Below, piece by piece: positions 238-40,729 of a stretch of 41,069 bases of DNA. How positions within the stretch are numbered: the first letter of the stretch is position 1; each line of letters opens with the position of its first letter. The DNA lies in the IMG/VR virus record IMGVR_UViG_3300045988_181040, positions 1 through 41,069 of that record, one strand, 5' to 3'. Position numbers and translations under genes: made by a program. Below the pieces are notes generated by a model, which saw only the letters and a program-made list of their open reading frames with translations, made no database searches and was not told the DNA's origin. The DNA is from a virus.

Positions 238-1146
238 ATGCAATTGACGGATGTTTTGGAAGAATTTATATTCGACTGTAAATTGAGACGGATGAGTGAA
301 AGGACGATCAAAGGGTATAAAAATAATAATTTAAGATTTATCACATTTATCCGGAATGAATATCAAGTCAGTGAGTTAGAAAAGGTTCATTGCAAGCTAA
401 TCAAGGCTTATCTGGAACAGCTATCTTCTTTAGGAAGAATGCCAAGCTACATCAATGGAATTATAAAAAGTATGAGGGCGTTCTATCGGTATTGTATAGA
501 TGAAGAGTATCTATTCAATAATCCAATGGATAAAGTTAAATTCCAGAAGGAGCCTATAACACTTATTACTACTTTTAATAATAACGAAGTTAAGAAGATG
601 GTAGTGTATTACAGTGGGAGCAGATATTTGAGTATTAGAAATAAACTGATCATGATCACTCTTTTTGATACAGGGATAAGAAATTCTGAATTATGCAATT
701 TATTATTAACGAGTATTCGTGAGGAATATATTATGATTATGGGGAAAGGAAAAAAAGAACGGGTTGTTCCAGTTTCTCCGATATTAAACAAAACATTGAT
801 TAAATATAAGCGTGTAAGAGCAGAATACATAAAAGACAAATTTGCTTATCAAACAGAATATTTATTTCTATCACAAAATGGAAGAAAACTTACACCGGAG
901 GCAGTTGAAAAGATTGTAGGAGATTGTGCAAAAGCTTGTAAGGTCAGAAAACATATTCGAAGTAGTCCACATACATGTCGGCATTATTTTGCGCAGGCAC
1001 AGTTGAAGAATGGATGTGATCTATATACCCTGTCCCGATTACTGGGGCATAGTAATATCAATATTACTAAAATTTACCTGCAGTCTCTACAAGATGAAGA
1101 TGTACTTGAATTAGGGGTAAAAACAAGTCCATTGATGAATTTGTAA
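238..1146 (+). CDS. Tyrosine recombinase (phage integrase / Xer-like)
   Basis: 302 aa. Catalytic pattern: TGIRNSEL (Arg), HTCRHYFA (H-x-x-R), LGHSNINITKIYL (His...Tyr). RBS gaaaggag lies upstream. Confidence 0.9.
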   Translation: MQLTDVLEEFIFDCKLRRMSERTIKGYKNNNLRFITFIRNEYQVSELEKVHCKLIKAYLEQLSSLGRMPSYINGIIKSMRAFYRYCIDEEYLFNNPMDKVKFQKEPITLITTFNNNEVKKMVVYYSGSRYLSIRNKLIMITLFDTGIRNSELCNLLLTSIREEYIMIMGKGKKERVVPVSPILNKTLIKYKRVRAEYIKDKFAYQTEYLFLSQNGRKLTPEAVEKIVGDCAKACKVRKHIRSSPHTCRHYFAQAQLKNGCDLYTLSRLLGHSNINITKIYLQSLQDEDVLELGVKTSPLMNL

Positions 1147-29080: not shown

Positions 29081-32000
29081 ATGTCGGATCATAAAATAAA
29101 AGTTGATGTAGAGTTGGACACGTCCAAAGCAAAAAAGCAATTGGATGATTTGACCAAGCAGAAACAAAAAGTGAAAATTGATGTGGATGCGTCAAAATTA
29201 AAAGCAGCATCCAAAGAAATTGAGGATATTGGGAAAAATAATAACCAGAAAATCAAGTTGGATGTCAATACGTCAGAATTGGATACTGCTGTAAAAAAGA
29301 TTAACAATCTAAAGCAGAGTAAAATCAATATCAATGCAAATGTAGAGGGTACAAATTCTGTAGATAATATGGCAAAAAGCTATGATACAGCAAAGAAAAG
29401 CGCGCAGGGATTAGGAACATCTATAAAAGAATTGGCAAAGTTAGGGTTGTCATTCCAGACGATCGAACAATCTGCAAGAGCAGCTGTAGAAGCAATTTCG
29501 GACATTGATAATGCTATTTTGGATTTGCAGATGGCTACAGGAGATAGTTATTCTGAAGTCAGAAATATGGTCAGTGGATATAATGACATGGCAAAATCTC
29601 TTGGGGCGATTACAACAGAGGTTACATCCGGCGCTGATACATGGTTGAGAAGTGGTAAGTCACTGGCAGAGACAAATATGTTGATTAAAGATACCATGGT
29701 ACTCAGTAAAAATGCCAAGATGTCTTCTGAGGATAGTTCTAAAGTGCTGACCGCAACTTTAAATGGATTCCAGTTGGCAGCAGATCAGGCAAGTCACGTA
29801 AATGATATTTTATCGAGCATTGATTTGGAATCTTCATCGGATGCGGAAGGCATCGGTACAGCATTAACCAAAACAGCATCTATGGCACATAATGCTGGAT
29901 TATCGCTGGAAAAGACTGCTGCCTCAATTGCCACGATTAAAGAAGTTACGCAGGATTCTGATGAATCAATTGGTAATGCGCTGAAATCCATGTTATCACG
30001 CATGAATCAGATTAAAGCTGGTAAGTTTATTGATGCGGAGACGGGAGAAGCCTTAAATGATACGGAAAAGGTGTTAAAAGCAGTTGGCATCAATATGAGA
30101 GATGTAAATGGTCAATTTCTGGATGCAGAAACCATAATTGATAATGTTGGGAAGAAGTGGTTAATGTTTGATAAAAACACGCAAAAAGCGATTGCCACTG
30201 CGATGGGTGGAACCTATCAATATAACAAATTGATTTCTTTATTTGATAATTATGATAAAGTACTCTCTTTGACAGGAACAGCACAGAATTCCAGCGGAAT
30301 GGCAATGAAGAAGTTTAATGATGCATACTTAAATTCCCTGGAGGCAAAAAAGAAGAGTCTGCAGGCATCATTTGAGTCTTTATCCATGAATTTGATTAGT
30401 AAAGAATCTATTTCTGGAATCTTGGAAGCATCGCAGTCAGTGGTAGAGTTTCTGGATAAAACAAGCCTGTTAAAGACTGCGTTGACTGGCTTGGCAGTTG
30501 GTGGTGCAATCAAAGGCTTCACAATGTTGACAACATCTATTACGCAAGCAGCTATGAAAATGCAAAATTTCAGCAACGCAATGAGTTTATTGAAAACAGG
30601 TAATATCGGTACAGATGGTGTAAAACAGTTGACCACCTTGGTAGATGGATTATCTAAAAGTCAATTAAAGGCAGTGCTGTCTTCACAAAATTTAACCAAT
30701 GCTCAAAGAATGCAAATCTTACAGAGTACCGGACTGAGCGAAGCACAAGCTGCTGCAAAATTATCTACTATGGGATTGGCTACGGCAGAAGGAGCAGCAA
30801 CAGCAACAACGGTCACATTTAGTGGTGCATTAAAGGGACTCTGGGCAACGTTGATGGCAAATCCGATTGTCTTGATTACCACAGCATTAACAGCAGGTAT
30901 TTCTATCTGGAATGCATATCAGCAGTCTGTAGAAGAAACCATTCAGACAGCCAAAGATGCATCGAATGCATGGAAAGAATCTACATCCAGTCTGGATGAA
31001 CAAATCTCCAAATATAAAGAATTAAAAGCAAAATTAGCTTCTGGTGATTTAACTGAATCGGAAGAGTATAGCGTTAAGCAACAAATCTTAGAAATTCAAA
31101 ATCAGATTACTTCTCAATATCCAGAACAGGCAGCAGGAGTGGATCTGGTCAATGGAAACCTTCAGACACAGCTTGGTTTGTTACAGCAGATTGCAGTTGA
31201 AAATGCAAAGTCTACATTGAATGAAAACAGAAAAGAATTTCAAGATGTAGAAAAGGCAATGACGAAGAAGAGACACTATAGTCTTGGTGATACAGGTGTT
31301 ACGAATGAAATCGAAGGTGTGGGGAAAGACATCTATGATATCGCAAAGGAATTTGAAAAGCAGGGAATTACTTTACAGGATACAGGGATGAACACCGGGA
31401 TATTTACAATCTCATTTGATGGGGATGCATCCAAAGCGGATAAAGTTATCAATGACTTTATGAATCGTGTATCTGCATTACAGTCGGAATATGAAGAACA
31501 GGATTTTGCGACAGGGAAAATAGAATCTGTTCTGAATTACTCAAGTAAAGCATTAAGTGCAAATAAGAAGGTTTTGGACGATTATCAAGAGAGTTATCAG
31601 ACATTCTTGCAGATGGATATGGTAGCAAATGAAAAGATGTTTTCTGTAGATTACGATAAATCCAAGAAATCTTACGGTCAATTATATGAAGATTATGCAG
31701 ATGCAGTAGAGAAATATAATGAAGCGTTATCAAGTGGGGATACCTCTAAAATTGAAGAAGCAAAGACATCATTTGAAGGAGTGCAAAAGGCAGTTGATTC
31801 CGTTGTTGGAAGTGATAATAAGTACACTTCAGTTTTTGAAGGTGTGACAGATCAACTGGCGAAAGCATCCATTGCAGCAAATGAATTTAAGAAAGTTTTG
31901 GGAAAAGACGGAACGGATGAAGTGCCTAAAGGCTTTGAATCTTCTGCAAAAACTTATGCAAATAACATCAAACGTCTTGGACTTAGTGATCTGGACTTCC

Positions 32001-35000
32001 AGATTGCATTAGACACAGAAGGTTCACAAAAAGGTGAAGTTGCTATCCAGGCATTGACACAGGCTGCTTTGGATATGGGGTTGATTGCCGGGACATCTTC
32101 GGAAGAAGTACAACCTTTGTTGGATGTACTGGTGGAATTAGGAGTTATTTCTACACAAACCGGAGACAATGTAGAAGAATCTGCAAAATCATTTGAAGAG
32201 TTAGCAAATTCCACACAGACAACGTTGAAGACGATTTCAGCAGTATCGGAAGCGTTGGAGGGACAGTCTACAGGAAAATCCATTGATGTGGAAACATTTA
32301 ATTCAGAAGAATTAAGAGAATATCAATCTGCATTAGAATATGTAAATGGTACAATGCGTTTAAATGAAGAACGGGTAGCAGAAATTACACAGGCAAAAGC
32401 AGAAGAAGCGGTTGCAACGAACAATGCAAACAAAGCACAGAAGCAATCAGAGTATTTGAAAAATGCCGGGGAAATTGAACAGCTAAGAGAAAAGCTGAAA
32501 TCTTTAAATGAGGGAACAGATGCTTATACTCAAACAAAATCAGAATTGGATTCTTTAATGTCTGCAAATTCTGCAATTGCAGCAGAGTGTCAACAGTATG
32601 ATTTGCTTACATCTGCAATCAAAGAGGCAACAGGTGCGTATCAAAACTGGCTGGATAAACAAGATACAACAGAATCTGGAGATATGTTTGATGCTTCTTT
32701 GGATGCAATGCAGGCGATTTCAGATGTAGCGGATCCGAATTCTGAAGATTATGGAAGAGTTGGAACAAAAAGATATGAGGCAGCAGTAGATTTCATTGTG
32801 CCAGAATCTATTAACCATGAAGATGAACAGGCTGTTCAAAATTATATGAATAGCATCGGTGAATATTTTAACTATGACGAAAATGGTCAGAGAGTTGGAA
32901 TGGATGTTGCTCAATTTTGTAGCAATGCTGTTAATGCTGGTCTGATGAATGTAGAAACAGATGTCAACGGGAAAGAAATCTTTAATCTTGCCGATGGAAT
33001 TAAGATGGAAGACTTTGAAGAAAAGTTGAATCTCTCAAAATCTATGGTACAGGCAATGTTTGGAGAAATGGAAGAGTTTGGCGGTAAGTTTGACTGGGCG
33101 GATGAAGCAGTACAAACAGTTGGAGATTTAGGTGTGAAAGCCTATGAATCAGCAAATGCATTACAAAGTTTGAAAGAAAATGAAAATCTGGATATTAAAA
33201 TGGATGTATCTGGAATTGAAGATATAGAGGGCAAGATTACAACACTGGATAGCACAATTGCCCAAATGAATGAGATAAAAGCACGTCCGGATGTTGATGC
33301 TTCTTCCATTGAGAATGCGAATAATATTATTCAGTATTGTATCGCGCAGAAGCAGCAGTTGACCAACCCTGTGATTATGAATGTAGACACGTCACAAGTA
33401 GAAGGAGAGATAGCGAATGTTCTTGCAAAATTGCAGGAATTTCAAAATGCGAAAAATGAATTGGATATGCAAGCATCTGTTGGTGCTGACACATCAGAAG
33501 CCCAGGCAAAAGTAAATTCTCTTGCTTCTGAAATTCAAGCAATGCAACCTACAATTCAGGCAAAGGTTAGTGGTAGTTTTGACGCATCATCTATTGAAAG
33601 CATCGTGTCTAGTATTAGTGCAATTACACCAGAGATGTTGGTGAAATGTGGAGTGAATGATACTGCAATTCAAAATTACACACCAGAGAACAAAGATGCA
33701 ACAGTTACATATCATCTAAATTCTACAGCAGTAGATAATTATAATCCGTCTAATTTGCAGAGAACAGTAACTTATAATGTTATAACGAATGGTTCTGCGC
33801 CCAAAGTAAATGGAACTGCTCATGTAGAAGGAACAGCGCAAGTACATCGTAGGATTCATAAAGCTCTTGCAAATGGAGAGTGGGGAGTTCAGAATGATGA
33901 AGTTGCTTTAACTGGAGAGATTGGTCGTGAGCTAGTTGTCTCCGGGAACAGGTGGTGGACAGTTGGTGATAGAGGGGCTGAATTTGCTCATATTCCAAAG
34001 AATGCAATTGTTTTTAATCATAAACAAACGGAAGAAATCTTTAAAAATGGATATGTAACCTCTAATGGTGGAAGAGGGAAAGCCTATGCATCTGGTACAG
34101 CATATGTGACAGGAAGTATTGGTGTCAATAATGCGAACAAAAATGTAGCAGGTTTATCCAACACTACTTCCAACAATCTCAACTCCGCATCAAATAATCT
34201 TGCCAAAGCTGCTTCTGATACTTCTAAAGCAGCATCAGACACATCAGAAGCTGCCGAGAAATTATCAGAAGCAGTATCCGGATACACGGACTGGGCTGAG
34301 GTGTTATTCAAACGCTTAGAATCACAGTATGATTTGCTGATGAGTCAAATGGAGCGTATCGCACATCTCCCAGACAAGCAACAGAAACTGTATGAGGCAA
34401 TGTCTAAGAACAGTGAACTACTGAATAGGACTCAGCAAGCAATTGGGACTTATCAAAGTCATTTTGATTCTATTGTGCGACAGAGTGGAATAAACCCACT
34501 TATCGTCCATCAGATTCAGAACGGTTCTCTGGATATCTCAAAATATGACCAGGATACTCAAAAAATAATCAGCGAGTTGCAGTCTTATTATGATAAGCTC
34601 GTAGATTGTAATAAACAGTACGATGACCTCTTAAATAAACAGAGTGAACTGGCGCAGACAGCATTGGATAATATTGAAGATTACATCGATATGATGACTG
34701 GAATTGAGTCCTCTGCTGTAGATTATCAGGAGGCATTACGTGAGTTAGCAGCTGCAAAAGGAGAATCTGCATATTCCGATAATATGTATGGCTCTCTGCA
34801 AGAATCTATTAAAAATCAACAGGACGTTGCCGGTAAATTACAGTCACAGATTAAATCATATCAAGATGAAATCAATAAACTCATGGCAAATGGGTATATG
34901 GCTGAATACTCAACGGAATGGTTTGAAGCTCAAGCTGCATTAAACGGATTCAGACAAGAAGCTGCTGAAGCTGAGAAAACACTGATTGAATTACAAGATC

Positions 35001-35829
35001 AGTTAAGAGAACTTGATTTACTGAAACTGCAACAGGTTATTGATGAGTTAGACAGAACTGCAAAACGACTGGAAAACAATTCTGACCTTACAGAATCAAA
35101 AGGTGAACAGGTATCTGAAAAAGATTTACAGGCACAGCTTGACAATGCAAATGCACAGATTCAGGCAAATTACGATAAGCGGAATGAACTATTAAAGGAT
35201 CAGGCAAAATATGATGTCGGTTCTGACAAATATAATGAATATGCAGAAGAGATAGAAAAGCTCGATGACGCTATCTTTGATGCAATGGAGAACATTGAAG
35301 ACCTCAAAAATAAAATCTGGGAAGTAAGATGGCAACCGTTCTTTGATGGACAGGAAGCATTAGGTGATCTGATTGACCAGACAGATGATTTAAGAGGACT
35401 TTTAAATAGTGATGCTTTTCTTGGGAAAAATGGTGGATTAACACTTGATGGTATTGCAAATATTGCTCTGATTAGTCAGGGTATGAATGCTGCGAAACAA
35501 CAGATTTCTAATTACAGAAAAGCTCTTGAGAAATTACAACAGGACTTAGACAACGGCAATATTTCCACACAAGAATTTGAAGAGTCTTCAAAGAAGTTTA
35601 TGGATGAGATTGCTTCAAGTACCTCAAAAATCGAATCTTATAAAGACGAGATCGTTTCTCTTTACACTAATATGTTAGAGAAGGAAAACGAAGTAGTCCA
35701 AACTAGCATTAAAAATCAAAAGGATTTGTTAAGCTCTAAAAAAGAGAATGATGACTACGACAGAAATGTAAGAAAGAAAACTAAAAATATCAATTCTATC
35801 CAGGCACAGATTGCAGCTTTGGAAGGGGT
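29081..35829 (+). CDS. Tail tape measure protein, exon 1 (TP901-family core); joins 37818..39231 after intron removal
   Basis: RBS taaggaggg. The TP901-type TMP core runs ILDLQMATGDSY...GADTWLRSGK...SKVLTATLNGF...IGTALTKTASMAHNAGLSLE...IGNALKSMLSRM. TM-like segments and long coiled coils are present. The apparent stop at 35834 lies inside the intron. Confidence 0.85.
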
Positions 35830-37817
35830 TTGGTAAAGCCCTATCTATTTTAATTGCTGGAAAACCGTAAAGCCATATAAACTACAACGCAAGGATGAAA
35901 TAAACCTAAACGTGAATGTTTGAGAATTATATGGATGTTTATGCTAGATGTAATCTTCTAGGTTATAAATGTAAAAATTGGCAATCAGCAGCGAAGCTCC
36001 GAATAGGAGAACGTTCAACGATCAGTGGGTGATGAGTGTAACCCATGTAAGACCACAAGCGATTGGTGGTACGAAACAAATAGACTATTTTAATTAAGCA
36101 AATTTTAGATATATGTATTTTATTAATCACGTTGAAACATACGTGATTTTTTGTTGCGAAAATTTACAAAAAACAAAATTAAAAAAGTGAATAACAGATT
36201 GGAGGTGTCAAATGTTAGTAGAAAATCAATTAGTTGAAGTAAAGTGGTACAGTTCTAATAAAAATTGGTATGAATCAAAGGGATATAAGTTTACAAAGAA
36301 TGGAGACAGTTTTTTAGTTAACGCAGATGAATTAGTATTGTCATCAAAACAAAAAGTTTTTGTAGTTTGTGATATATGTGGAAAAGAAACAAATATGAAT
36401 TATTCTTCTTACATTAATTCTATAAAGAATAATGGAGAATATCATTGTAGAGAATGTTCGAAGGAGATAGGTGCTCAAAAATTAATAGATAAAAACAAGA
36501 AAAAGTATTTTAATTTATTTCTTAATTGGTGTAAGAAAAATAATTATACACCAATCTCTACTATTGACGATTACATAAACTCTTTAAGCGATTTATATTT
36601 TATGTGTAATATACATGGAAAAGGTAAGATAAGTTGTTCAAGAATACAAGGGGGTCAAAAGTCTGGCGGGTGCTGTAAAGGACATACTTTAAGCAATGTC
36701 AAAAGAGAAGATATTGGTTTTGTAAAAGATACTGTAGAAAGTAAAAATAATAATATATTGCTTAATGCAAATGAGTATATAAATGCTCGTAAAAAAAATT
36801 TAAGAATAATATGTGGGTCATGTAACAAGGAATTTGTAGCAAGCTTTGCGTCTATTATTTCAGGCAATGGTATGTGTTTTGATTGTGGAAGGGATATTCA
36901 TAATTGGTCTTCTTATGATTCTATAATTGATAATCGATATAAGAAATATTATGATAGATGTAACGAATTAGGATACTACCCATTAATGACAAAAGACGAC
37001 TTTGGATCAATGAATGCAAAAGGGTATATTCAATTTTTGTGTCCAAATCACGGAGAGGTGAGTCAACTATATAACAATTTTGTTAACGGAGGTTCTATGT
37101 GTAAACATTGCTCTGACGATTTTAGGGCATCAAAATTAAAATATGACTCTGAGTCCATTCTAAGCATAATTGAAAGTAAAAACAAAAATAAATTGGTAGA
37201 TATAAATGAATATAAAAACTCAATTACACCAATCAGTATACAGTGCGGATCTTGCGGGAAAATTTTCAAACAATCACTCTCTAATTACCAAAGAGCAAAT
37301 GTAACTGGAAAATGTCAGGATTGTAATGAAATAAGTATTTCTGAGTATATAATTTCTACAATATTAGATAAATACAATATATCTTATATAAGACAATACA
37401 AATTTGATGATTGTCGAGATAAATTGCCGTTGCCTTTTGATTTTTATCTACATGAATATAATTTATGCATAGAATTTGATGGTCTTCAACACTATAAGCC
37501 AATATGGGGTGAAAATCAATTTTTGACAACAAAGTTACATGACGCCATGAAAGATAATTATTGTCGTTGGAATAATATAAATATGTTAAGAATACCATAT
37601 TGGGAAGATAAAAATTTAGAAACCATTTTAAAAAAACATTTAAGAATAGAAAAAGATGAAATAAATACTGAACGTAATGCGAAACAATTAAAGATAAAAT
37701 ACATACCAAATAGAAAAATAGCTTAATTATATAGAAGATATGATCTCATCTCATATGAAAGTATGAGGAGAGTTACTACTCTCTCACTTATGTAGCGAAT
37801 AAGTGAAAAGATAATTG
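35830..37817 (+). mobile_element. Group I self-splicing intron (IA-like) interrupting the tape measure gene
   Basis: P1 pairs exon GGGGU (35825-35829) with GCCCU (35838-35842), with a U-G wobble at the splice site. aattgctggaaaaccgtaaagcc, aatcagcagcgaagctcc and gttcaacgatcag resemble the P, Q and R core elements. P6 is CTCC/GGAG. There are three 3'-terminal hairpins, then G37817. Splicing restores the frame: ...ALEG-V-NNEAAKAELKRLKAEL... Confidence 0.75.
36212..37726 (+). CDS. Intron-encoded putative homing endonuclease: repeated Zn-ribbon modules plus a C-terminal Vsr/DUF559-like PD-(D/E)XK nuclease domain
   Basis: RBS ttggaggtg. Five CxxC...CxxC-type modules. C-terminal LPLPFDFYLHEYNLCIEFDGLQHY....D..KDNYC...NINMLRIPYWE matches the D...E-x-D-G-x-x-H...D..R...L..G...LR pattern. 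Confidence 0.7.
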   Translation: MLVENQLVEVKWYSSNKNWYESKGYKFTKNGDSFLVNADELVLSSKQKVFVVCDICGKETNMNYSSYINSIKNNGEYHCRECSKEIGAQKLIDKNKKKYFNLFLNWCKKNNYTPISTIDDYINSLSDLYFMCNIHGKGKISCSRIQGGQKSGGCCKGHTLSNVKREDIGFVKDTVESKNNNILLNANEYINARKKNLRIICGSCNKEFVASFASIISGNGMCFDCGRDIHNWSSYDSIIDNRYKKYYDRCNELGYYPLMTKDDFGSMNAKGYIQFLCPNHGEVSQLYNNFVNGGSMCKHCSDDFRASKLKYDSESILSIIESKNKNKLVDINEYKNSITPISIQCGSCGKIFKQSLSNYQRANVTGKCQDCNEISISEYIISTILDKYNISYIRQYKFDDCRDKLPLPFDFYLHEYNLCIEFDGLQHYKPIWGENQFLTTKLHDAMKDNYCRWNNINMLRIPYWEDKNLETILKKHLRIEKDEINTERNAKQLKIKYIPNRKIA

Positions 37818-39231
37818 AAATAACGAAGCAGCAAAAGCTGAATTAAAACGTTTAAAAGCTGAATTGGCAGATGCACAGGATGAATATTCTCAGTTACGTA
37901 AGGATCATGAATATGATGTGCGTCAAAATGGATATGAAGGTTTGAGCGATGATCTAAATGAGCAACTTAATGATACTTTAGAAGAGATTAAGACAAATTC
38001 TGCTAAACAAGAAGAAGTCATATCCAATATGCTTGGAAAAATTGTCGGCATGTATGATAAGGCTTATGACAAAATTCAGCAAATCATCAACAGTACAGGA
38101 TTTGTACCGAATAAGGATTTATCCAATAATCTTGGAAATCTTGGTACAAGTAATGGAGCGCAGAACCAGGTAGACAACAGTATGACTACTGCTCCTAATT
38201 ATAGACCTGATGATTGGACGGACGTGAATACCGGTCAGATTCAGAACGGAACAACACAGGATAAGAATGATCAGATTCAAGGTGATATCAGCAAGAATCC
38301 AGACTTATCCAATAGACCTGTTGCAGAAATTACATTAAGTCCGGGGACACTTTCTATACAGGAAGGTTCTACAGGCACAGTTTCAGCGACAATTAGACCA
38401 AATGATGCAAAGAATAAGAGCTTGCAGTGGGTGTCATCAAATCCAGATGTTGCTACGGTTGCAAATGGAACTGTTCATGCTGTCAAAGCAGGTAGCACTA
38501 CTATTAGTGCAATTGCAACAGATGGTGGAGGTGCTACTTCAACAAATAGTTGTGCAGTAACTGTTACACCAAAACCAGAACCGCCAAAACCAACTACACC
38601 ACCTCAGAATAATAATGGCGGAGGAGATGGAGTACCGAATGTTGGAGATAAAGTAGTATTCGCAAGCGGAGATTACTACTACTCTTCTGACGGTCAGTCC
38701 CCTGCTGGAAATGAAATGCGTGGTCAGGAAGTATATATTACCAGTGTAAATAATGCGAATTGGGCACAGAGGAAATATCATATTAGTAGAACACCTCGTT
38801 TCGGAGAGCGTGACCTTGGTTGGGTAAGTCTTGACCAGTTAAGAGGTTATGCGTCTGGAACAAAGAAATTTGTAAATGGTTCAGAAATTGTTCGTATCAA
38901 TGAAGGAAATAATCCTGAAATGATGGTTAGGCGTGGTGCATTGACAGGAACAGCGACGACGATTACTTATGGTGATGCTGTTGTAAATGCAAGACTGTCA
39001 AAGAACATTATGGATCTTGGTGAACACAAAGATGATATTTATAGTTCACTGAACATTGCTAACAGCCTTGGTGAAAGACCTAATGTAACAAACAATTACT
39101 ATGACAAGATGATAGAAGTTCAAGGAAGTATTGACAAGGAAACCTATCCAGGCATGAAGAAGGTAATTGAAGGAGTCACAAAGGAATTTACCAAAGAAGC
39201 TCATAAACTTGGAATGCATCGGACACTTTAA
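37818..39231 (+). CDS. Tail tape measure protein, exon 2 (coiled coil, Big_2 Ig-like domain, Pro/Thr linker, SH3b-like domain)
   Basis: The frame is open from 37819, with no RBS or ATG (the track uses TTG 37864). The coiled coil continues from exon 1. The Big_2 motif is ITLSPGTLSIQEGSTGTVSATIRPNDAKNKSLQWVSSNPDVATVANGTVHAVKAGSTTI. Confidence 0.8.
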
Positions 39232-39360: not shown

Positions 39361-39753
39361 GTGAATAAAACATATGTAACAAAAGAAATTATTTCAAGAG
39401 TGGTAGATAGGCTATATCAGCAAGGAGAAAGAATTGAGGTAGGTGGAAATCGACATACATATAAAAGAAAGTATCATTTGAAGTATAGCCAGATTATTGT
39501 GCGAAATGTTTTGAACGCATTTCTTGAAGAAATAGCAGTAGTATTGTCTGAGGGAGATGCTGTGAAAATTACAGGGTATTTTAGATTAGAACCCAAATTA
39601 TATAAAGGATGGGAGCAGAAATTTAAACTTTGCGAGGAGAAACAAACCGTTCCGGATCAGTATAAACCGAAAGTGAAATTATATAAGAGATTAAAAGATG
39701 CATGTAAGTCATTGGTAAAAGAAAATAATAAGATGAACGAAGAGGAGCTGTGA
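39361..39753 (+). CDS. HU/IHF-like DNA-binding protein (with an N-terminal insertion)
   Basis: MNKT..., VRNVLNAFLEEIAVVLSEGDAVKITGYFRLEPKLYKG and ..VPDQYKPKVKLYKRLKDA parallel the HU blocks (..AV.A....I...L..GD.V.L.GFG.F.V..R; .P....P.FK.GK.LKDA). GTG start. Confidence 0.55.
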   Translation: MNKTYVTKEIISRVVDRLYQQGERIEVGGNRHTYKRKYHLKYSQIIVRNVLNAFLEEIAVVLSEGDAVKITGYFRLEPKLYKGWEQKFKLCEEKQTVPDQYKPKVKLYKRLKDACKSLVKENNKMNEEEL

Positions 39754-39754
39754 T

Positions 39755-40729
39755 ATGGGAAGTTTGAAGATATTGGATACAAAAAAGGAAGGAATTGAAC
39801 TGCTGAATCAGCTAGAAACTTTTGTGGAGATAGAATGGGCTCCACATTATTATATTTCTTCAGAAGGAAGACTGGCGAATAATTATAGAAAAAAGAAGTT
39901 TTATATGCATAAACAGACGCTGAATTCACATGGAAAAGTACATTGGAAGATATTTTATGAGGACAAGGCGAACGGAACAGTGATTCAAGAAGATGTAACG
40001 GCAGAAAAACTCGTGGCAAAAACTTTCTTAGAAACGGTTTGTGGAAAGTATAGAATTTATCATATAGACGGAGATTTATCTAACAGCAAGTATAATAATC
40101 TGATGTATGTAGATGACAAAGAATTTTATAAACTATCCGTGCAGCAGATGCATGTGAATGAGTTGGGGCGTGTGCAAGCATATGTTCCATTTTTAAATCA
40201 AAACAGAATGAAAGCAAGGCGGTTGTGGAATGATATGCAGACACGGTGTTATAATGCGAAATATCATAAACGCAGTCCGGAATATGAAGAGTGCAGCATC
40301 TGTCAAGAGTGGTTAGAAGATAAGGAAAAGTTCTTTCAGTGGGTAGAAGAAAATTATTATACGGTCGGAGATGAGCGCATGGATTTAGATAAAGATATTC
40401 TTGTAAAGGGGAATAAAGTATATAGTCCAGATACCTGTGTATTTGTTCCGCACAGTATCAATACATTATTTCTGTCATGCAAAGGAAAGAGAGGAAAATA
40501 TCCAATCGGCGTGTATTATGATTCTGATAAGAAAAAATATTGTGCGAATGTGAATGTAAATAGTGAGTGCATTAAGCTTTCTGTAAAGAACACACCAGAA
40601 GAAGCGTTTGAAGAATACAAACGACATAAAGAGGCAATAATTATAGTGACAGCAGATAAATACAAAAAATATATTCCTAGCAAGGTTTACAATGCGATGC
40701 TCAACTGGAAAGTGGAAATTACAGACTAA
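39755..40729 (+). CDS. Free-standing HNH_3/NUMOD4-like endonuclease fused to an AP2-like DNA-binding domain
   Basis: W...YYISSEGRL.....KLVAKTFL....IYHIDGDLSNSKYNNL is the NUMOD4/HNH_3 pattern. WNDMQTRCYN...IC.EW..F..F..W and IGVYYDSDKKKYCANVNVN...LSVKNTPEEAFEEYK are AP2-like. Confidence 0.6.
   Translation: MGSLKILDTKKEGIELLNQLETFVEIEWAPHYYISSEGRLANNYRKKKFYMHKQTLNSHGKVHWKIFYEDKANGTVIQEDVTAEKLVAKTFLETVCGKYRIYHIDGDLSNSKYNNLMYVDDKEFYKLSVQQMHVNELGRVQAYVPFLNQNRMKARRLWNDMQTRCYNAKYHKRSPEYEECSICQEWLEDKEKFFQWVEENYYTVGDERMDLDKDILVKGNKVYSPDTCVFVPHSINTLFLSCKGKRGKYPIGVYYDSDKKKYCANVNVNSECIKLSVKNTPEEAFEEYKRHKEAIIIVTADKYKKYIPSKVYNAMLNWKVEITD

What the first reader, a model, noticed from the sequence alone, without database searches (positions are those of the whole stretch)
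35825..37830. Group I intron splitting a giant tape measure gene, with a base-resolved splice model
The TMP reading frame stops at 35834 (..AALEGVW*). The same kind of coiled-coil sequence resumes in an ORF that is open from 37819 and has no RBS or ATG (NNEAAKAELKRLKAELADAQ..).

The intervening 1988 nt has group I hallmarks:
- Exon GGGGU (35825-35829) pairs with GCCCU (35838-35842), giving the canonical U-G wobble at the 5' splice site.
- ttaattgctggaaaaccgtaaagcc, aatcagcagcgaagctcc and gttcaacgatcag resemble the conserved P, Q and R elements. Compare Tetrahymena AAUUGCGGGAAAGGGGUCAACAGCC, CGCAGCCAAGUCC and GUUCACAGACUA.
- GCUG/CAGC can form P4 and CUCC/GGAG can form P6. TCTATTT (35844-35850) / AAATAGA (36078-36084) can form P3.
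- Two extra hairpins (TGGGT/ACCCA and ACCAC/GTGGT) fit IA-type P7.1/P7.2.
- An ORF sits in a peripheral loop. Three 3' hairpins precede G37817 (omega-G).

Splicing at 35829|37818 is the only U.../...G combination I found that keeps the frame and avoids the TGA at 37816. It gives GT+A = Val and a TMP of 2720 aa (8163 nt). Phage group I introns are known mostly in nucleotide-metabolism and DNA polymerase genes, so a tape measure location is unusual.
Basis: partly seen in the sequence, partly recalled or inferred. Interest (0 to 1): 0.75.

Follow-up and report, generated by a model that had tools for sequence, protein, structure and literature searches.

The report
Group I intron splitting tape-measure gene

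Summary
The TMP frame stops at 35834-36. A 504-aa ORF follows. The TMP-like frame reopens at 37819 with no start signal. Uninterrupted homologues read ..AQIAAL(E/D)(G/S)VNNEAAKAE.. straight across, and their DNA (..TCGGTAAATAACGAAGC..) matches the window spliced at 35829|37818.

The 1,988 nt form a subgroup IA-type group I ribozyme: P1 with U.G, P3-P9.2 including P7.1/P7.2, and omega-G37817. The ORF lies in the P8 loop. On eight related copies, 96% of cells pair (35-42% when partners are slid). 32 of 81 pairs show compensatory changes (2-6 when slid). The internal guide sequence co-varies with the exon.

Rfam RF00028 misses the whole window because of the 1.6-kb P8 loop. It gives a local P4-P6/R hit (29.7 bits, E 5.5e-6) on the ORF-free slice, and it hits close relatives at 51-103 bits.

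The ORF is a Vsr-like (EDxHD-type) nuclease with zinc-ribbon repeats.

About a third of related phage contigs carry an intron at this codon. TMP introns were already reported in Bacillus cereus prophages in 2008, so this is a new member of a known kind.

Side finding: sister introns at the same codon carry RNase-toxin-like cargos instead.

The parts
29081..35829 (+). TMP exon 1 (2249 codons plus GT of the Val codon); own RBS AAGGAGG upstream
   Evidence: ORF list and translation. PhageMin_Tail and phrog_4211 TMP. Homologues continue past this point.
35825..35842 (+). P1: exon GGGGU (35825-29) paired with the internal guide GCCCU (35838-42). U35829.G35838 wobble at the 5' splice site; loop UUGGUAAA holds the in-frame TAA.
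   Evidence: Sequence. The guide co-varies with the exon in relatives: GGGGU/GCCCU, (U)CGGU/GCCG(A/G), GCGU/GCGC.
35830..37817 (+). Group I intron, 1988 nt, subgroup IA-type
   Evidence: Absent from uninterrupted alleles. Covariation. RF00028 local hit.
35844..35850 (+). P3 5' strand UCUAUUU (pairs with 36078-36084 AAAUAGA)
   Evidence: 4 of 7 pairs have compensatory changes (e.g. L073 UGUGUUU/AAACACA). Recovered by RNAfold.
35852..35990 (+). P4-P5 domain. P element AAUUGCUGGAAA. P4 35855-60/35985-90. P5 35865-67/35979-81. P5a 35873-80/35927-34. P5b 35887-94/35905-13. P5c 35935-48/35957-72. Q element CAAUCAGCAGCGAAG.
   Evidence: RF00028 alignment. Helix coordinates. P5, P5a and P5b are 100% paired with compensatory changes.
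35997..36009 (+). P6 hairpin CUCC-GAAUA-GGAG
   Evidence: L073 has CCUC/GAGG. In 33 metagenome relatives the P6 sequence varies but stays self-complementary.
36013..36024 (+). R element GUUCAACGAUCA, with the P7 5' strand GAUCA (36020-24)
   Evidence: P7 GAUCA/UGAUC in 4 copies and GACUA/UAGUC in 4 copies (two pairs change on both sides).
36026..36070 (+). P7.1 (36026-30/36041-45) and P7.2 (36052-56/36066-70), the subgroup IA hallmark hairpins
   Evidence: P7.2 appears as ACCAC/GUGGU, ACCGC/GCGGU, ACUAC/GUAGU, AUUGC/GCAGU, and GUUAC/GUAAC in type B.
36078..36084 (+). P3 3' strand AAAUAGA
36091..37729 (+). P8: stem UAAUUAAGC (36091-99) / GCUUAAUUA (37721-29) enclosing a 1.6-kb loop that holds the ORF. 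The ORF stop codon TAA 37724-26 lies in the 3' strand.
   Evidence: Sequence. Every relative has a different but self-complementary stem enclosing its cargo.
36125..36158 (+). Hairpin AAUCACGU..ACGUGAUU followed by a U-run, inside the P8 loop upstream of the ORF (terminator-like; role unknown)
   Evidence: Conserved in L017.
36201..37726 (+). Intron ORF with RBS GGAGGUG (36201-07) and ATG 36212. It encodes a 504-aa putative homing endonuclease: N-terminal CxxC zinc-ribbon repeats and a C-terminal Vsr-like (EDxHD-type) nuclease domain (about aa 375-478).
   Evidence: phrog_559/9084/7140. Invariant E378, D410, E421, H427, D444, K447. AF2 pLDDT 88. Foldseek hits 3r3p prob 0.98 and 1vsr prob 0.97.
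37735..37745 (+). S element AAGAUAUGAUC, with the P7 3' strand UGAUC (37741-45)
   Evidence: It matches the RF00028 consensus AAGAUAUAGUC seen in the L013 alignment.
37750..37805 (+). P9 (37750-55/37762-67), P9.1 (37768-73/37778-83) and P9.2 (37785-91/37799-805)
   Evidence: z = -4.7; 0 of 200 shuffles fold as well. Compensatory changes. The same 3' domain ends introns in a topoisomerase-like gene, one of which scores 50.6 bits on RF00028.
37817..37817 (+). omega-G, last intron nucleotide (..GAUAAUUG|AAAUAAC..)
   Evidence: Conserved in all copies. The splice point is fixed by the intron-less allele.
37818..39231 (+). TMP exon 2 (A of the Val codon plus 470 codons and the stop). Coiled-coil continuation, Big_2 Ig domain and a C-terminal domain.

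Best explanation
Window 35830-37817 is a mobile group I intron of the IA type, the kind common in phages of Gram-positive bacteria. It is inserted in the tape-measure gene of a temperate phage of human-gut Bacillota.

**Splicing (inferred).** The gene is transcribed through the intron. The RNA folds into the P1-P9.2 ribozyme. An external guanosine attacks after U35829, which is held in P1 by the guide GCCCU with a U.G wobble. The freed exon 1 then attacks after omega-G37817. This joins ..GGGGU to AAAUAAC.. and restores one 2720-aa TMP (..AALEGV-NNEAAK..).

**Without splicing.** Translation would stop 5 nt into the intron. The 470-aa C-terminal part, which has no start signal of its own, would not be made.

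**Mobility (inferred).** The P8 loop carries a separately translated 504-aa endonuclease with zinc-ribbon DNA-binding repeats and a Vsr-like/EDxHD-type nuclease domain. During co-infection it most likely cuts intron-less TMP alleles near the conserved GGTAAATAACGAAGCAGCAAAAGC site, so that the intron is copied in by recombinational repair (homing).

**Shown versus inferred.** Shown here: the insertion, the junction, the conserved and co-varying RNA structure, homology to recognised group I introns, the presence/absence polymorphism, and the nuclease fold. Inferred: that this copy actually splices, and that the protein cuts the empty site.
For: 1. **Insertion and junction.** Sixteen uninterrupted homologues read continuously across the junction with a conserved G/S-V-N-N. 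The intron-less DNA allele L003 reads GATTCGGTAAATAACGAAGCAGCAAAAGC, and the window spliced at 35829|37818 reads GAAGGGGTAAATAACGAAGCAGCAAAAGC.
2. **Polymorphism.** Of 58 related viral loci, about 40 are continuous and about 18 match only from residue N69, the first full codon of exon 2.
3. **RNA structure.** An 81-pair pseudoknotted group I model scored on 8 cargo-trimmed copies gives 96.3% paired against 35-42% slid. 32 pairs have changes on both sides against 2-6 slid. The covariation score is 0.291 against at most 0.069 slid, and 0 of 500 shuffles reach it. P7 switches between GAUCA/UGAUC and GACUA/UAGUC.
4. **P1.** The guide follows the exon sequence in three variants, independently of core type.
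5. **Rfam.** RF00028 gives a local hit at 35855-36021 (29.7 bits, E 5.5e-6) with P4, P5, P6 and R aligned. Relatives with the same Q-P6-R/P7.2 sequences or the same P9 domain score 50.6-103 bits.
6. **Similarity to known introns.** The core is 69-84% similar to 180 GenBank phage records, including an annotated group I intron in Clostridium phage D-1873.
7. **Folding.** RNAfold recovers the same helices. The 3' domain has z = -4.7.
8. **Start signals.** There is no start/SD for exon 2, but strong SDs precede the TMP and the intron ORF.
9. **The ORF.** PHROG homing/intron-encoded nuclease families match at 1e-59 to 1e-17. E378/D410/H427/D444 are invariant. The fold matches I-Bth0305I and Vsr.
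10. **Recurrence.** The identical ORF is found in the same TMP context on at least 23 gut-metagenome contigs.
Against: - RF00028 does not reach its gathering score on the window. It gives nothing in the full-window and 2.2-kb scans and only 29.7 of 50 bits on the ORF-free slice.
- The 5' domain is no more stable than shuffled sequence (z about 0).
- No P2 and no convincing P10 are seen in the window copy. L001 and the type-B copies have a UAUUU/UUAUUU stretch complementary to the 3' exon; the window does not.
- A terminator-like hairpin with a U-run lies inside the intron, upstream of exon 2.
- The Foldseek E-values for the nuclease domain are weak (0.09-0.14) even though the probabilities are 0.97-0.98.
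- No RNA or protein data exist for splicing.
Confidence: 0.88

Rival explanations
1. The intron is a decayed, non-splicing relic. The TMP is made as a truncated 2251-aa protein, or the prophage is defective, and the downstream 470 codons are a dead remnant.
For: There is no direct evidence of splicing. RF00028 is below threshold on the window. No P2 or P10 is evident. A terminator-like hairpin lies inside the intron.
Against: Every modelled helix is intact in the window copy. The intron ORF is full-length compared with about 500-aa homologues. Exon 2 is an intact 470-codon frame with conserved domains. The same arrangement recurs on at least 23 contigs. Compensatory changes show continuing selection on the RNA fold.
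Confidence: 0.07
2. These are two genuinely separate tail genes with a free-standing homing-endonuclease gene inserted between them, and no RNA splicing takes place.
For: Gene callers annotate three separate ORFs in all metagenome copies. Free-standing HEGs between phage genes are common, and one probably lies at 39755-40729 in this window.
Against: Exon 2 has no start codon or SD. Homologues are continuous at this exact codon. The flanks of the ORF form a conserved, co-varying ribozyme with P/Q/R/S elements. The read-through tails after exon 1 differ in length and sequence between copies.
Confidence: 0.03
3. The interruption is another kind of intervening element (intein, group II intron, IS element) or an assembly chimera.
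For: None specific.
Against: In-frame stops at 35834 and 37816 exclude an intein. There are no group II or other Rfam hits, no reverse transcriptase or transposase, and no terminal repeats. The structure is identical on many independent assemblies.
Confidence: 0.01

Closest known systems
Group I introns TMP-IVS1/2/3 in tape-measure genes of Bacillus cereus-group prophages (Tourasse & Kolsto 2008, PMC2504315)
   Same: These are IA-class group I introns interrupting a phage TMP gene. Several insertion sites occur within one TMP. Related introns sit at different TMP sites with an adapted P1. Different cores sit at the same site with the same P1/IGS. Presence is patchy among related phages. All of these patterns are seen here.
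   Different: The host phages, TMP family and insertion site are different. The TMP here is about twice as long (2720 aa). Several of the Bacillus introns lack a complete HEG, whereas the window copy has an intact one of another family. Direct homology to the Bacillus TMP introns was not tested.
Rfam RF00028 Intron_gpI; subgroup IA phage introns (T4 td/nrdB, SPO1 and Twort-type, Clostridium phage c-st/D-1873)
   Same: P1 with U.G, omega-G, P/Q/R/S elements, the P3-P7 pseudoknot, P7.1/P7.2, and an ORF in a peripheral loop. The core is 69-84% identical to introns in such phages. Close relatives score 51-103 bits.
   Different: The window copy itself scores only 29.7 bits locally. It has no obvious P2, and it has a large P5a-c extension.
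I-Bth0305I and the EDxHD (Vsr-like) homing endonuclease family (Taylor et al. 2011, PMC3239194; PDB 3R3P)
   Same: It is intron-encoded in a phage of a Gram-positive host. The C-terminal Vsr-like nuclease fold matches (Foldseek prob 0.98, TM 0.57 to 3r3p). The E..D..x..H..D residues are conserved.
   Different: No sequence-level match to 3R3P or Vsr was found. The N-terminal DNA-binding part consists of four or five CxxC..CxxC zinc-ribbon modules (DUF723/DUF4379-like) rather than NUMOD/HTH. The protein is twice as long. The 'x' position is an invariant Glu.

Membership tests
Group I intron | The 5' splice site follows a U that forms a U.G wobble with the internal guide sequence in P1 | tested here: met
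   U35829.G35838 within GGGGU/GCCCU. The guide co-varies with the exon in three variants among relatives.
Group I intron | The last intron nucleotide is G (omega-G) | tested here: met
   G37817. ..AAUUG| or ..AAAUG| is conserved in all copies. The boundary is fixed by the intron-less allele.
Group I intron | Conserved core: P3-P8 with the P4-P6 and P3-P7-P8 domains, the P3/P7 pseudoknot, and P/Q/R/S sequence elements | tested here: met
   An 81-pair model is 96.3% paired, with 32 pairs carrying compensatory changes and clean controls. P, Q, R and S lie in the correct order at 35852, 35986, 36013 and 37735. The RF00028 alignment covers P4-P6 and R.
Group I intron | Score at or above the Rfam RF00028 gathering threshold (50 bits) | tested here: not met
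   There are no hits on the whole window or on 35700-37950. The ORF-free 5' slice gives 29.7 bits. The 1.6-kb P8 loop splits the model. Relatives without that loop, or with shorter loops, reach 50.6-103 bits. A search of an ORF-deleted construct could not be run with these tools.
Group I intron | Removal restores an uninterrupted host reading frame that matches intron-less alleles | tested here: met
Group I intron | Guanosine-dependent self-splicing; guanosine-binding site in P7 | not testable with these tools
   The P7 G36020-C37745 pair is invariant in all copies. Activity needs an experiment.
Subgroup IA | Extra hairpins P7.1 and P7.2 between the P7 5' strand and the P3 3' strand | tested here: met
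   36026-45 and 36052-70. P7.2 shows compensatory changes; P7.1 varies only on one side. The finer IA1/IA2/IA3 assignment was not tested. No P2 was found.
EDxHD / Vsr-like homing endonucleases | Vsr-like PD-(D/E)xK nuclease fold | tested here: met
   AF2 model with pLDDT 88 and an alpha-beta-beta-beta-alpha-beta-alpha core at aa 376-477. Foldseek hits: 3r3p prob 0.98 / TM 0.57, 1vsr prob 0.97 / TM 0.52, 3hrl TM 0.63. E-values are only 0.09-1.4.
EDxHD / Vsr-like homing endonucleases | Conserved catalytic residues E, D, (x), H, D | tested here: met
   E378, D410, E421, H427 and D444 are invariant in 43 homologues. The correspondence to Vsr E25/D51/H64/H69/D97 is inferred from order and spacing, not from a residue-level superposition.
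EDxHD / Vsr-like homing endonucleases | Sequence-detectable homology to family members, and an N-terminal NUMOD/HTH DNA-binding region | tested here: not met
   No PDB sequence hit to 3R3P or Vsr. No Pfam or NCBIfam family covers the domain. The N-terminus is built of CxxC zinc ribbons. It is best called a Vsr-fold endonuclease related to, but not clearly inside, the described EDxHD family.
EDxHD / Vsr-like homing endonucleases | Cleaves the intron-less allele next to the insertion site | not testable with these tools
   Indirect evidence only: the presence/absence polymorphism at one codon, and a near-identical 3' exon sequence AAATAACGAAGCAGCAAAAGCTGA among otherwise diverged TMPs.

The most novel reading that the evidence does not exclude
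The intron lineage to which the window copy belongs may work as an exchangeable cargo carrier and not only as a homing element.

At this very TMP codon, sister introns (two ribozyme core types sharing the same P1) carry other genes in the same P8 loop in place of a DNA endonuclease:
- a PemK/MazF-like toxin,
- a NYN RNase-like protein,
- a PBECR4 Barnase/EndoU/RelE-like nuclease preceded by a 'drum' structured RNA,
- a GNAT acetyltransferase,
- an unknown ORF.

The most novel reading is that the ribozyme makes an essential late gene a safe harbour. RNase-toxin-type accessory genes could ride there, be expressed with the structural operon and be swapped by recombination, possibly for competition between co-infecting phages or for host shut-off. 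It would also tie drum RNA to a defined genetic context.

For the window copy itself, the cargo is the conventional one, an endonuclease.
Probability: 0.35. Interest if true: 0.65.

Novelty: new member of a known kind. Interest (0 to 1): 0.4.

Why it matters
**Annotation.** Gene callers split this TMP into two or three 'hypothetical proteins' in every public copy. Recognising the intron restores a single 2720-aa tape measure. By the usual rule of about 1.5 angstroms per residue (general knowledge), that predicts a tail of about 0.4 micrometres in abundant human-gut temperate phages.

**Tool behaviour.** It is a worked example of RF00028 failing on an ORF-bearing intron even though the structure is textbook.

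**Biology.** It extends the known habit of group I introns colonising TMP genes from Bacillus prophages to gut Clostridia-type phages. It also adds a zinc-ribbon/Vsr-fold endonuclease architecture.

None of this changes concepts. The cargo diversity seen in sister introns is the part that could.

Tried and rejected
- **Megablast of 35000-38700 against GenBank phages:** no match.
- **tblastn of exon 2:** only Ig-domain hits.
- **RF00028 on the full window and on 35700-37950:** nothing. It became informative only on the ORF-free slice.
- **phmmer and profile search of the intron ORF against PDB sequences:** no nuclease hit, only weak XPA zinc-finger similarity. Pfam and NCBIfam give nothing for the nuclease domain.
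- **Metagenome scan:** Most of the 120 loci were chance matches, and 33 were real introns after filtering for the R element.
- **One MAFFT alignment across all four core types (A-D):** it scrambled the P5/P6 extensions. A combined A+B core alignment put type B out of register in P1, P3, P4, P9 and P9.x. The formal count was therefore restricted to type-A-like copies.
- **P8:** it could not be scored column-wise because its sequence travels with the cargo. It was assessed per sequence instead.
- **Offset errors:** my first P3, P7 and P8 offsets were wrong and were corrected.
- **Rejected readings:** intein (in-frame stops), group II intron (no domain V or RT hit), frameshift or readthrough (1988 nt with many stops).
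- **P10 and P2:** no convincing P10 or P2 was found in the window copy.
- **Literature search for toxin cargos in group I introns:** no direct precedent found. This does not show that none exists.

Full report
**1. What is in the sequence**

The window encodes a tape-measure protein (TMP) ORF at 29081-35836. It is 2251 aa long and matches Pfam PhageMin_Tail and PHROG 4211 'tail length tape measure protein'. It ends ..AALEGVW with TAA at 35834-36.

A 504-aa ORF follows at 36212-37726. It has a strong Shine-Dalgarno sequence, GGAGGUG at 36201-07.

After TGA at 37816, a frame opens at 37819 (NNEAAKAELKRLK..) and runs 470 codons to 39231. It has no in-frame ATG/GTG/TTG preceded by a Shine-Dalgarno sequence in its first ~400 nt.

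Joining 35829 to 37818 gives 8163 nt, which is 2720 codons plus the stop, with the junction ..ALEGV|NNEAAK... The intervening DNA has 28.7% G+C, against 38-39% in the flanking exons.

**2. It is an insertion into one gene**

I searched a 624-aa query spanning the hypothetical junction against 5.8 billion proteins and found 91 relatives. Sixteen that extend beyond the junction read straight across it. Examples are ..AQIAALD-SVNNEAAKAE.. and ..AQISALE-GVNNESA... Many others stop at exactly query residue 450, the junction.

At DNA level, the uninterrupted allele L003 reads GAT TCG GTA AAT AAC GAA GCA GCA AAA GC. The window spliced at 35829|37818 reads GAA GGG GTA AAT AAC GAA GCA GCA AAA GC. A one-base shift of either boundary would break the conserved Val codon.

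In the IMG/VR viral contigs, 58 loci encode this TMP region. About 40 are continuous. About 18 match only from N69, the first full codon of exon 2. This is the presence/absence polymorphism expected of a mobile intron.

**3. The intervening RNA is a group I ribozyme**

*Copies compared.* I extracted every insertion at this codon and found 13 distinct sequences. They share a conserved 5' block of about 250-300 nt and a 3' block of about 90 nt. Between these lies a variable middle that holds an ORF. Two core types occur: type A (window, L001, L017, L059, L073) and type B (eight others).

*P1.* The guide sequence follows the exon:
- GGGGU/GCCCU in the window and L059.
- (U)CGGU/GCCG(A/G) in L001, L017, L073, and also in L018, which has a type-B core.
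- GCGU/GCGC in the other type-B copies.

*Covariation test.* I built an alignment of eight type-A-like copies (A3). It holds five copies from this site, L126a from another TMP site, and L143 and L179 from other genes. Cargo loops were excised at sequence anchors. On it I scored an 81-pair model comprising P3, P4, P5, P5a-c, P6, P7, P7.1, P7.2, P9, P9.1 and P9.2, with P3 and P7 written as a pseudoknot. Results:

| Measure | Model | Controls |
|---|---|---|
| Cells forming a standard pair | 96.3% | 35-42% (3' partners slid by 1-3 columns) |
| Pairs with a change on both sides | 32 | 2-6 (slid) |
| Covariation score | 0.291 | at most 0.069 (slid) |
| Shuffles reaching the observed value | n/a | 0 of 500, for percent paired, the two both-sides-change counts and the covariation score; the count of further pair types did not differ from the shuffles (48 vs mean 48.6) |

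*Examples of compensatory change.*
- P7: GAUCA/UGAUC in four copies, GACUA/UAGUC in four.
- P6: CUCC/GGAG versus CCUC/GAGG.
- P3: UCUAUUU/AAAUAGA versus UGUGUUU/AAACACA.
- P5: CCG/UGG versus UCC/GGA.
- P7.2: four different pair sets.

*P8.* This stem encloses the cargo. Its sequence differs in each lineage but is always self-complementary. In the window it is UAAUUAAGC (36091-99) / GCUUAAUUA (37721-29), and the ORF's stop codon lies in the 3' strand.

*Thermodynamic folding.* Minimum-free-energy folding of the window sequence alone reproduces the same helices. The 3' domain is much more stable than shuffles (z = -4.7). The AT-rich 5' domain is not (z about 0).

*Element order.* P, Q, R, S and the terminal motif occur once each, in the right order, on the + strand. 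There is no second intron in the window.

**4. Rfam**

RF00028 gives no hit on the whole window at gathering, nor on 35700-37950 at E up to 10.

The cause is the 1.6-kb P8 loop. On the contiguous slice 35818-36100, RF00028 gives a local hit at 35855-36021 (29.7 bits, E = 5.5e-6). It aligns P4 (UGCUGG/UCAGCA), P5, P6 and the R element. This is still below the 50-bit gathering score, and I report that membership test as not met for the window itself.

Relatives are recognised:
- L013 shares the window's P9-P9.2 domain and terminal GAUAAUUG. It lies in a neighbouring exon of what looks like a type II topoisomerase gene. It scores 50.6 bits full-length.
- Of 20 metagenome loci sharing the window's Q-P6-R block, 16 have at least one RF00028 hit, at 51.7-103 bits. 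L143 (84.9), L090 (74.1) and L126 (55.1) also share its P7.2 hairpin.

Sensitive blastn links the core at 69-84% identity to 180 GenBank phage records. These include Clostridium phage D-1873, where the region is annotated as a group I catalytic intron. They also include Bacillus SP-15 (within the capsid gene), Staphylococcus phages, ICP1, and Enterocloster phages, where the core precedes an I-TevI-like gene.

**5. The intron ORF**

PHROG places it in homing/intron-encoded nuclease families at 1e-59 to 1e-17. Pfam sees only zinc-finger-like modules. The protein family has 546 members in the large database.

In an alignment of 43 members, the invariant residues are several CxxC pairs plus E378, D410, E421, H427, D444 and K447.

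An AlphaFold model (pLDDT 88) shows a C-terminal alpha-beta-beta-beta-alpha-beta-alpha core. Foldseek matches it to:
- the I-Bth0305I catalytic domain (3r3p; prob 0.98, TM 0.57, 21% identity),
- E. coli Vsr (prob 0.97),
- PvuRts1I,
- a DUF559-like protein,
- RAP-domain proteins.

All of these have Vsr-like folds, but the E-values are only 0.09-1.4.

The E..D..x..H..D order matches the EDxHD motif described for I-Bth0305I (PMC3239194). The N-terminal zinc-ribbon array differs from that enzyme's NUMOD/HTH region, and there is no sequence-level hit. I therefore call it a Vsr-fold, EDxHD-type putative homing endonuclease. Its cleavage activity is inferred.

The identical protein occurs on at least 23 human-gut metagenome contigs, always between the same two TMP pieces.

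**6. Context**

The window also encodes an integrase (238-1146), so the phage is temperate. The intron core occurs in genomes and MAGs of Oscillospiraceae, Peptococcaceae, Erysipelotrichaceae, Megamonas and other Bacillota.

Related TMP genes carry further introns at other positions:
- L126 has a type-A intron after ..IISEAQS and a type-B intron at our site.
- L003 has an ORF-bearing insertion before ..MMTGIESS.

**7. Comparison with what is known**

Group I introns in TMP genes are not new. Tourasse & Kolsto (2008, PMC2504315) found IA1/IA2 introns at three sites in TMPs of B. cereus-group prophages. They described the two patterns seen here: similar introns at different TMP sites with an adapted P1, and different cores at one site with the same P1.

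Introns in capsid, tail, terminase and lysin genes are also documented (PMC3706429, PMC4299906).

The finding is therefore a correct and unusually complete base-level model of a new member of a known kind. What is new is modest: a different phage group (human-gut Bacillota), a very long TMP, and a zinc-ribbon/Vsr-fold endonuclease architecture.

**8. Rivals**

- *Decayed, non-splicing intron.* This cannot be excluded without RNA data. It is unlikely, because all helices, the ORF and exon 2 are intact and the RNA fold shows ongoing compensatory evolution.
- *Two separate genes plus a free-standing endonuclease gene.* This is contradicted by the missing start signal, the continuous homologues and the ribozyme structure.
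- *Intein, group II intron, IS element or assembly artefact.* These are excluded.

**9. Unresolved points**

- A terminator-like hairpin with a U-run (36125-36158) lies inside the P8 loop, upstream of the ORF. It is conserved in L017. If it terminated efficiently it would prevent transcription of exon 2.
- No P2 or convincing P10 is seen in the window copy.
- The subgroup beyond 'IA' was not determined.

**10. Side observation**

In sister introns at the same codon, the P8 loop holds non-endonuclease cargos:
- NYN (1e-14),
- PemK/MazF-like (5.5e-22),
- PBECR4 (1.2e-20), preceded by an Rfam 'drum' RNA (66 bits),
- a GNAT acetyltransferase,
- an unknown ORF

. I found no report of such cargos in group I introns. 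This is the most interesting lead to come out of the analysis, but it lies outside the window.

Noticed in passing
L001, L059, L002, L016, L018, L004, L005, L021, L067, L081 (P8 loops of introns at the same TMP codon as window 35829|37818): Instead of a homing endonuclease, the cargo loop holds a NYN-domain protein (241 aa), a PemK/MazF-like toxin (160 aa), a PBECR4 Barnase/EndoU/RelE-like nuclease (199 aa), a GNAT acetyltransferase (201 aa) or an unknown 167-aa ORF. Two ribozyme core types and at least six cargos share one insertion site, which implies modular exchange of the P8 cassette.
   Followed up: partly
L004 2165-2275 (-) and L005 1935-2045 (-), i.e. intron nt 546-656 of 1463: An Rfam 'drum' RNA (RF02958, 66.3 bits, E 5e-10) lies inside the intron's P8 loop, directly upstream of the PBECR4-like ORF. 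This suggests a leader or partner RNA for that gene, and a defined genetic context for an orphan RNA motif.
   Followed up: partly
window 39361-40729: Right after TMP exon 2 there is a 130-aa HU-like (Bac_DNA_binding) ORF and a 324-aa HNH endonuclease (phrog_953, 2.5e-53). Relatives L001-L003 lack this pair of ORFs between the TMP and the DUF6558 tail gene. This is probably a free-standing homing-endonuclease insertion.
   Followed up: partly
window 36125-36158: A terminator-like hairpin (8-bp stem, 3 G-C pairs) followed by UUUUUGUUG lies inside the intron, upstream of the endonuclease RBS. It is conserved in L017. Its role is unknown; it might attenuate endonuclease expression or be a structural element.
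   Followed up: no
L126 (contig OLPD01000251.1) and L003 217-8559: Related TMP genes carry additional introns at other codons. L126 has a type-A intron after ..IISEAQS and a type-B intron at the window's site. L003 has a 338-aa ORF-bearing insertion before ..MMTGIESS. Several database TMP fragments start with MKAWEVHKRTA.., which is probably read-out of yet another intron's 3' end.
   Followed up: partly
L006, L010, L019 (3' exon ATTGATGG) and L012, L013, L015, L019, L023 (3' exon TGGGAGAAAAC): Introns with the same P9-P9.2 domain and terminal GAUAAUUG sit about 1.1 kb apart in one gene of 60-245-kb viral contigs. One splits a Toprim-like ..IIISSDAD|IDG.. motif of an apparent type II topoisomerase.
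   Followed up: partly
L083, L104, L150 (metagenome loci): Four to six RF00028 group I introns lie in tandem within 1-3 kb, indicating extremely intron-dense genes.
   Followed up: no
L090 1747-1808: A RAGATH-18 RNA (RF03064, 60 bits) lies about 1.3 kb downstream of a group I intron closely related to the window's core.
   Followed up: no
window 238-1146: A tyrosine integrase (phrog_1, 1.9e-42) indicates a temperate phage or prophage. The exact endonuclease protein is on contigs of up to 280 kb from human-gut metagenomes.
   Followed up: partly
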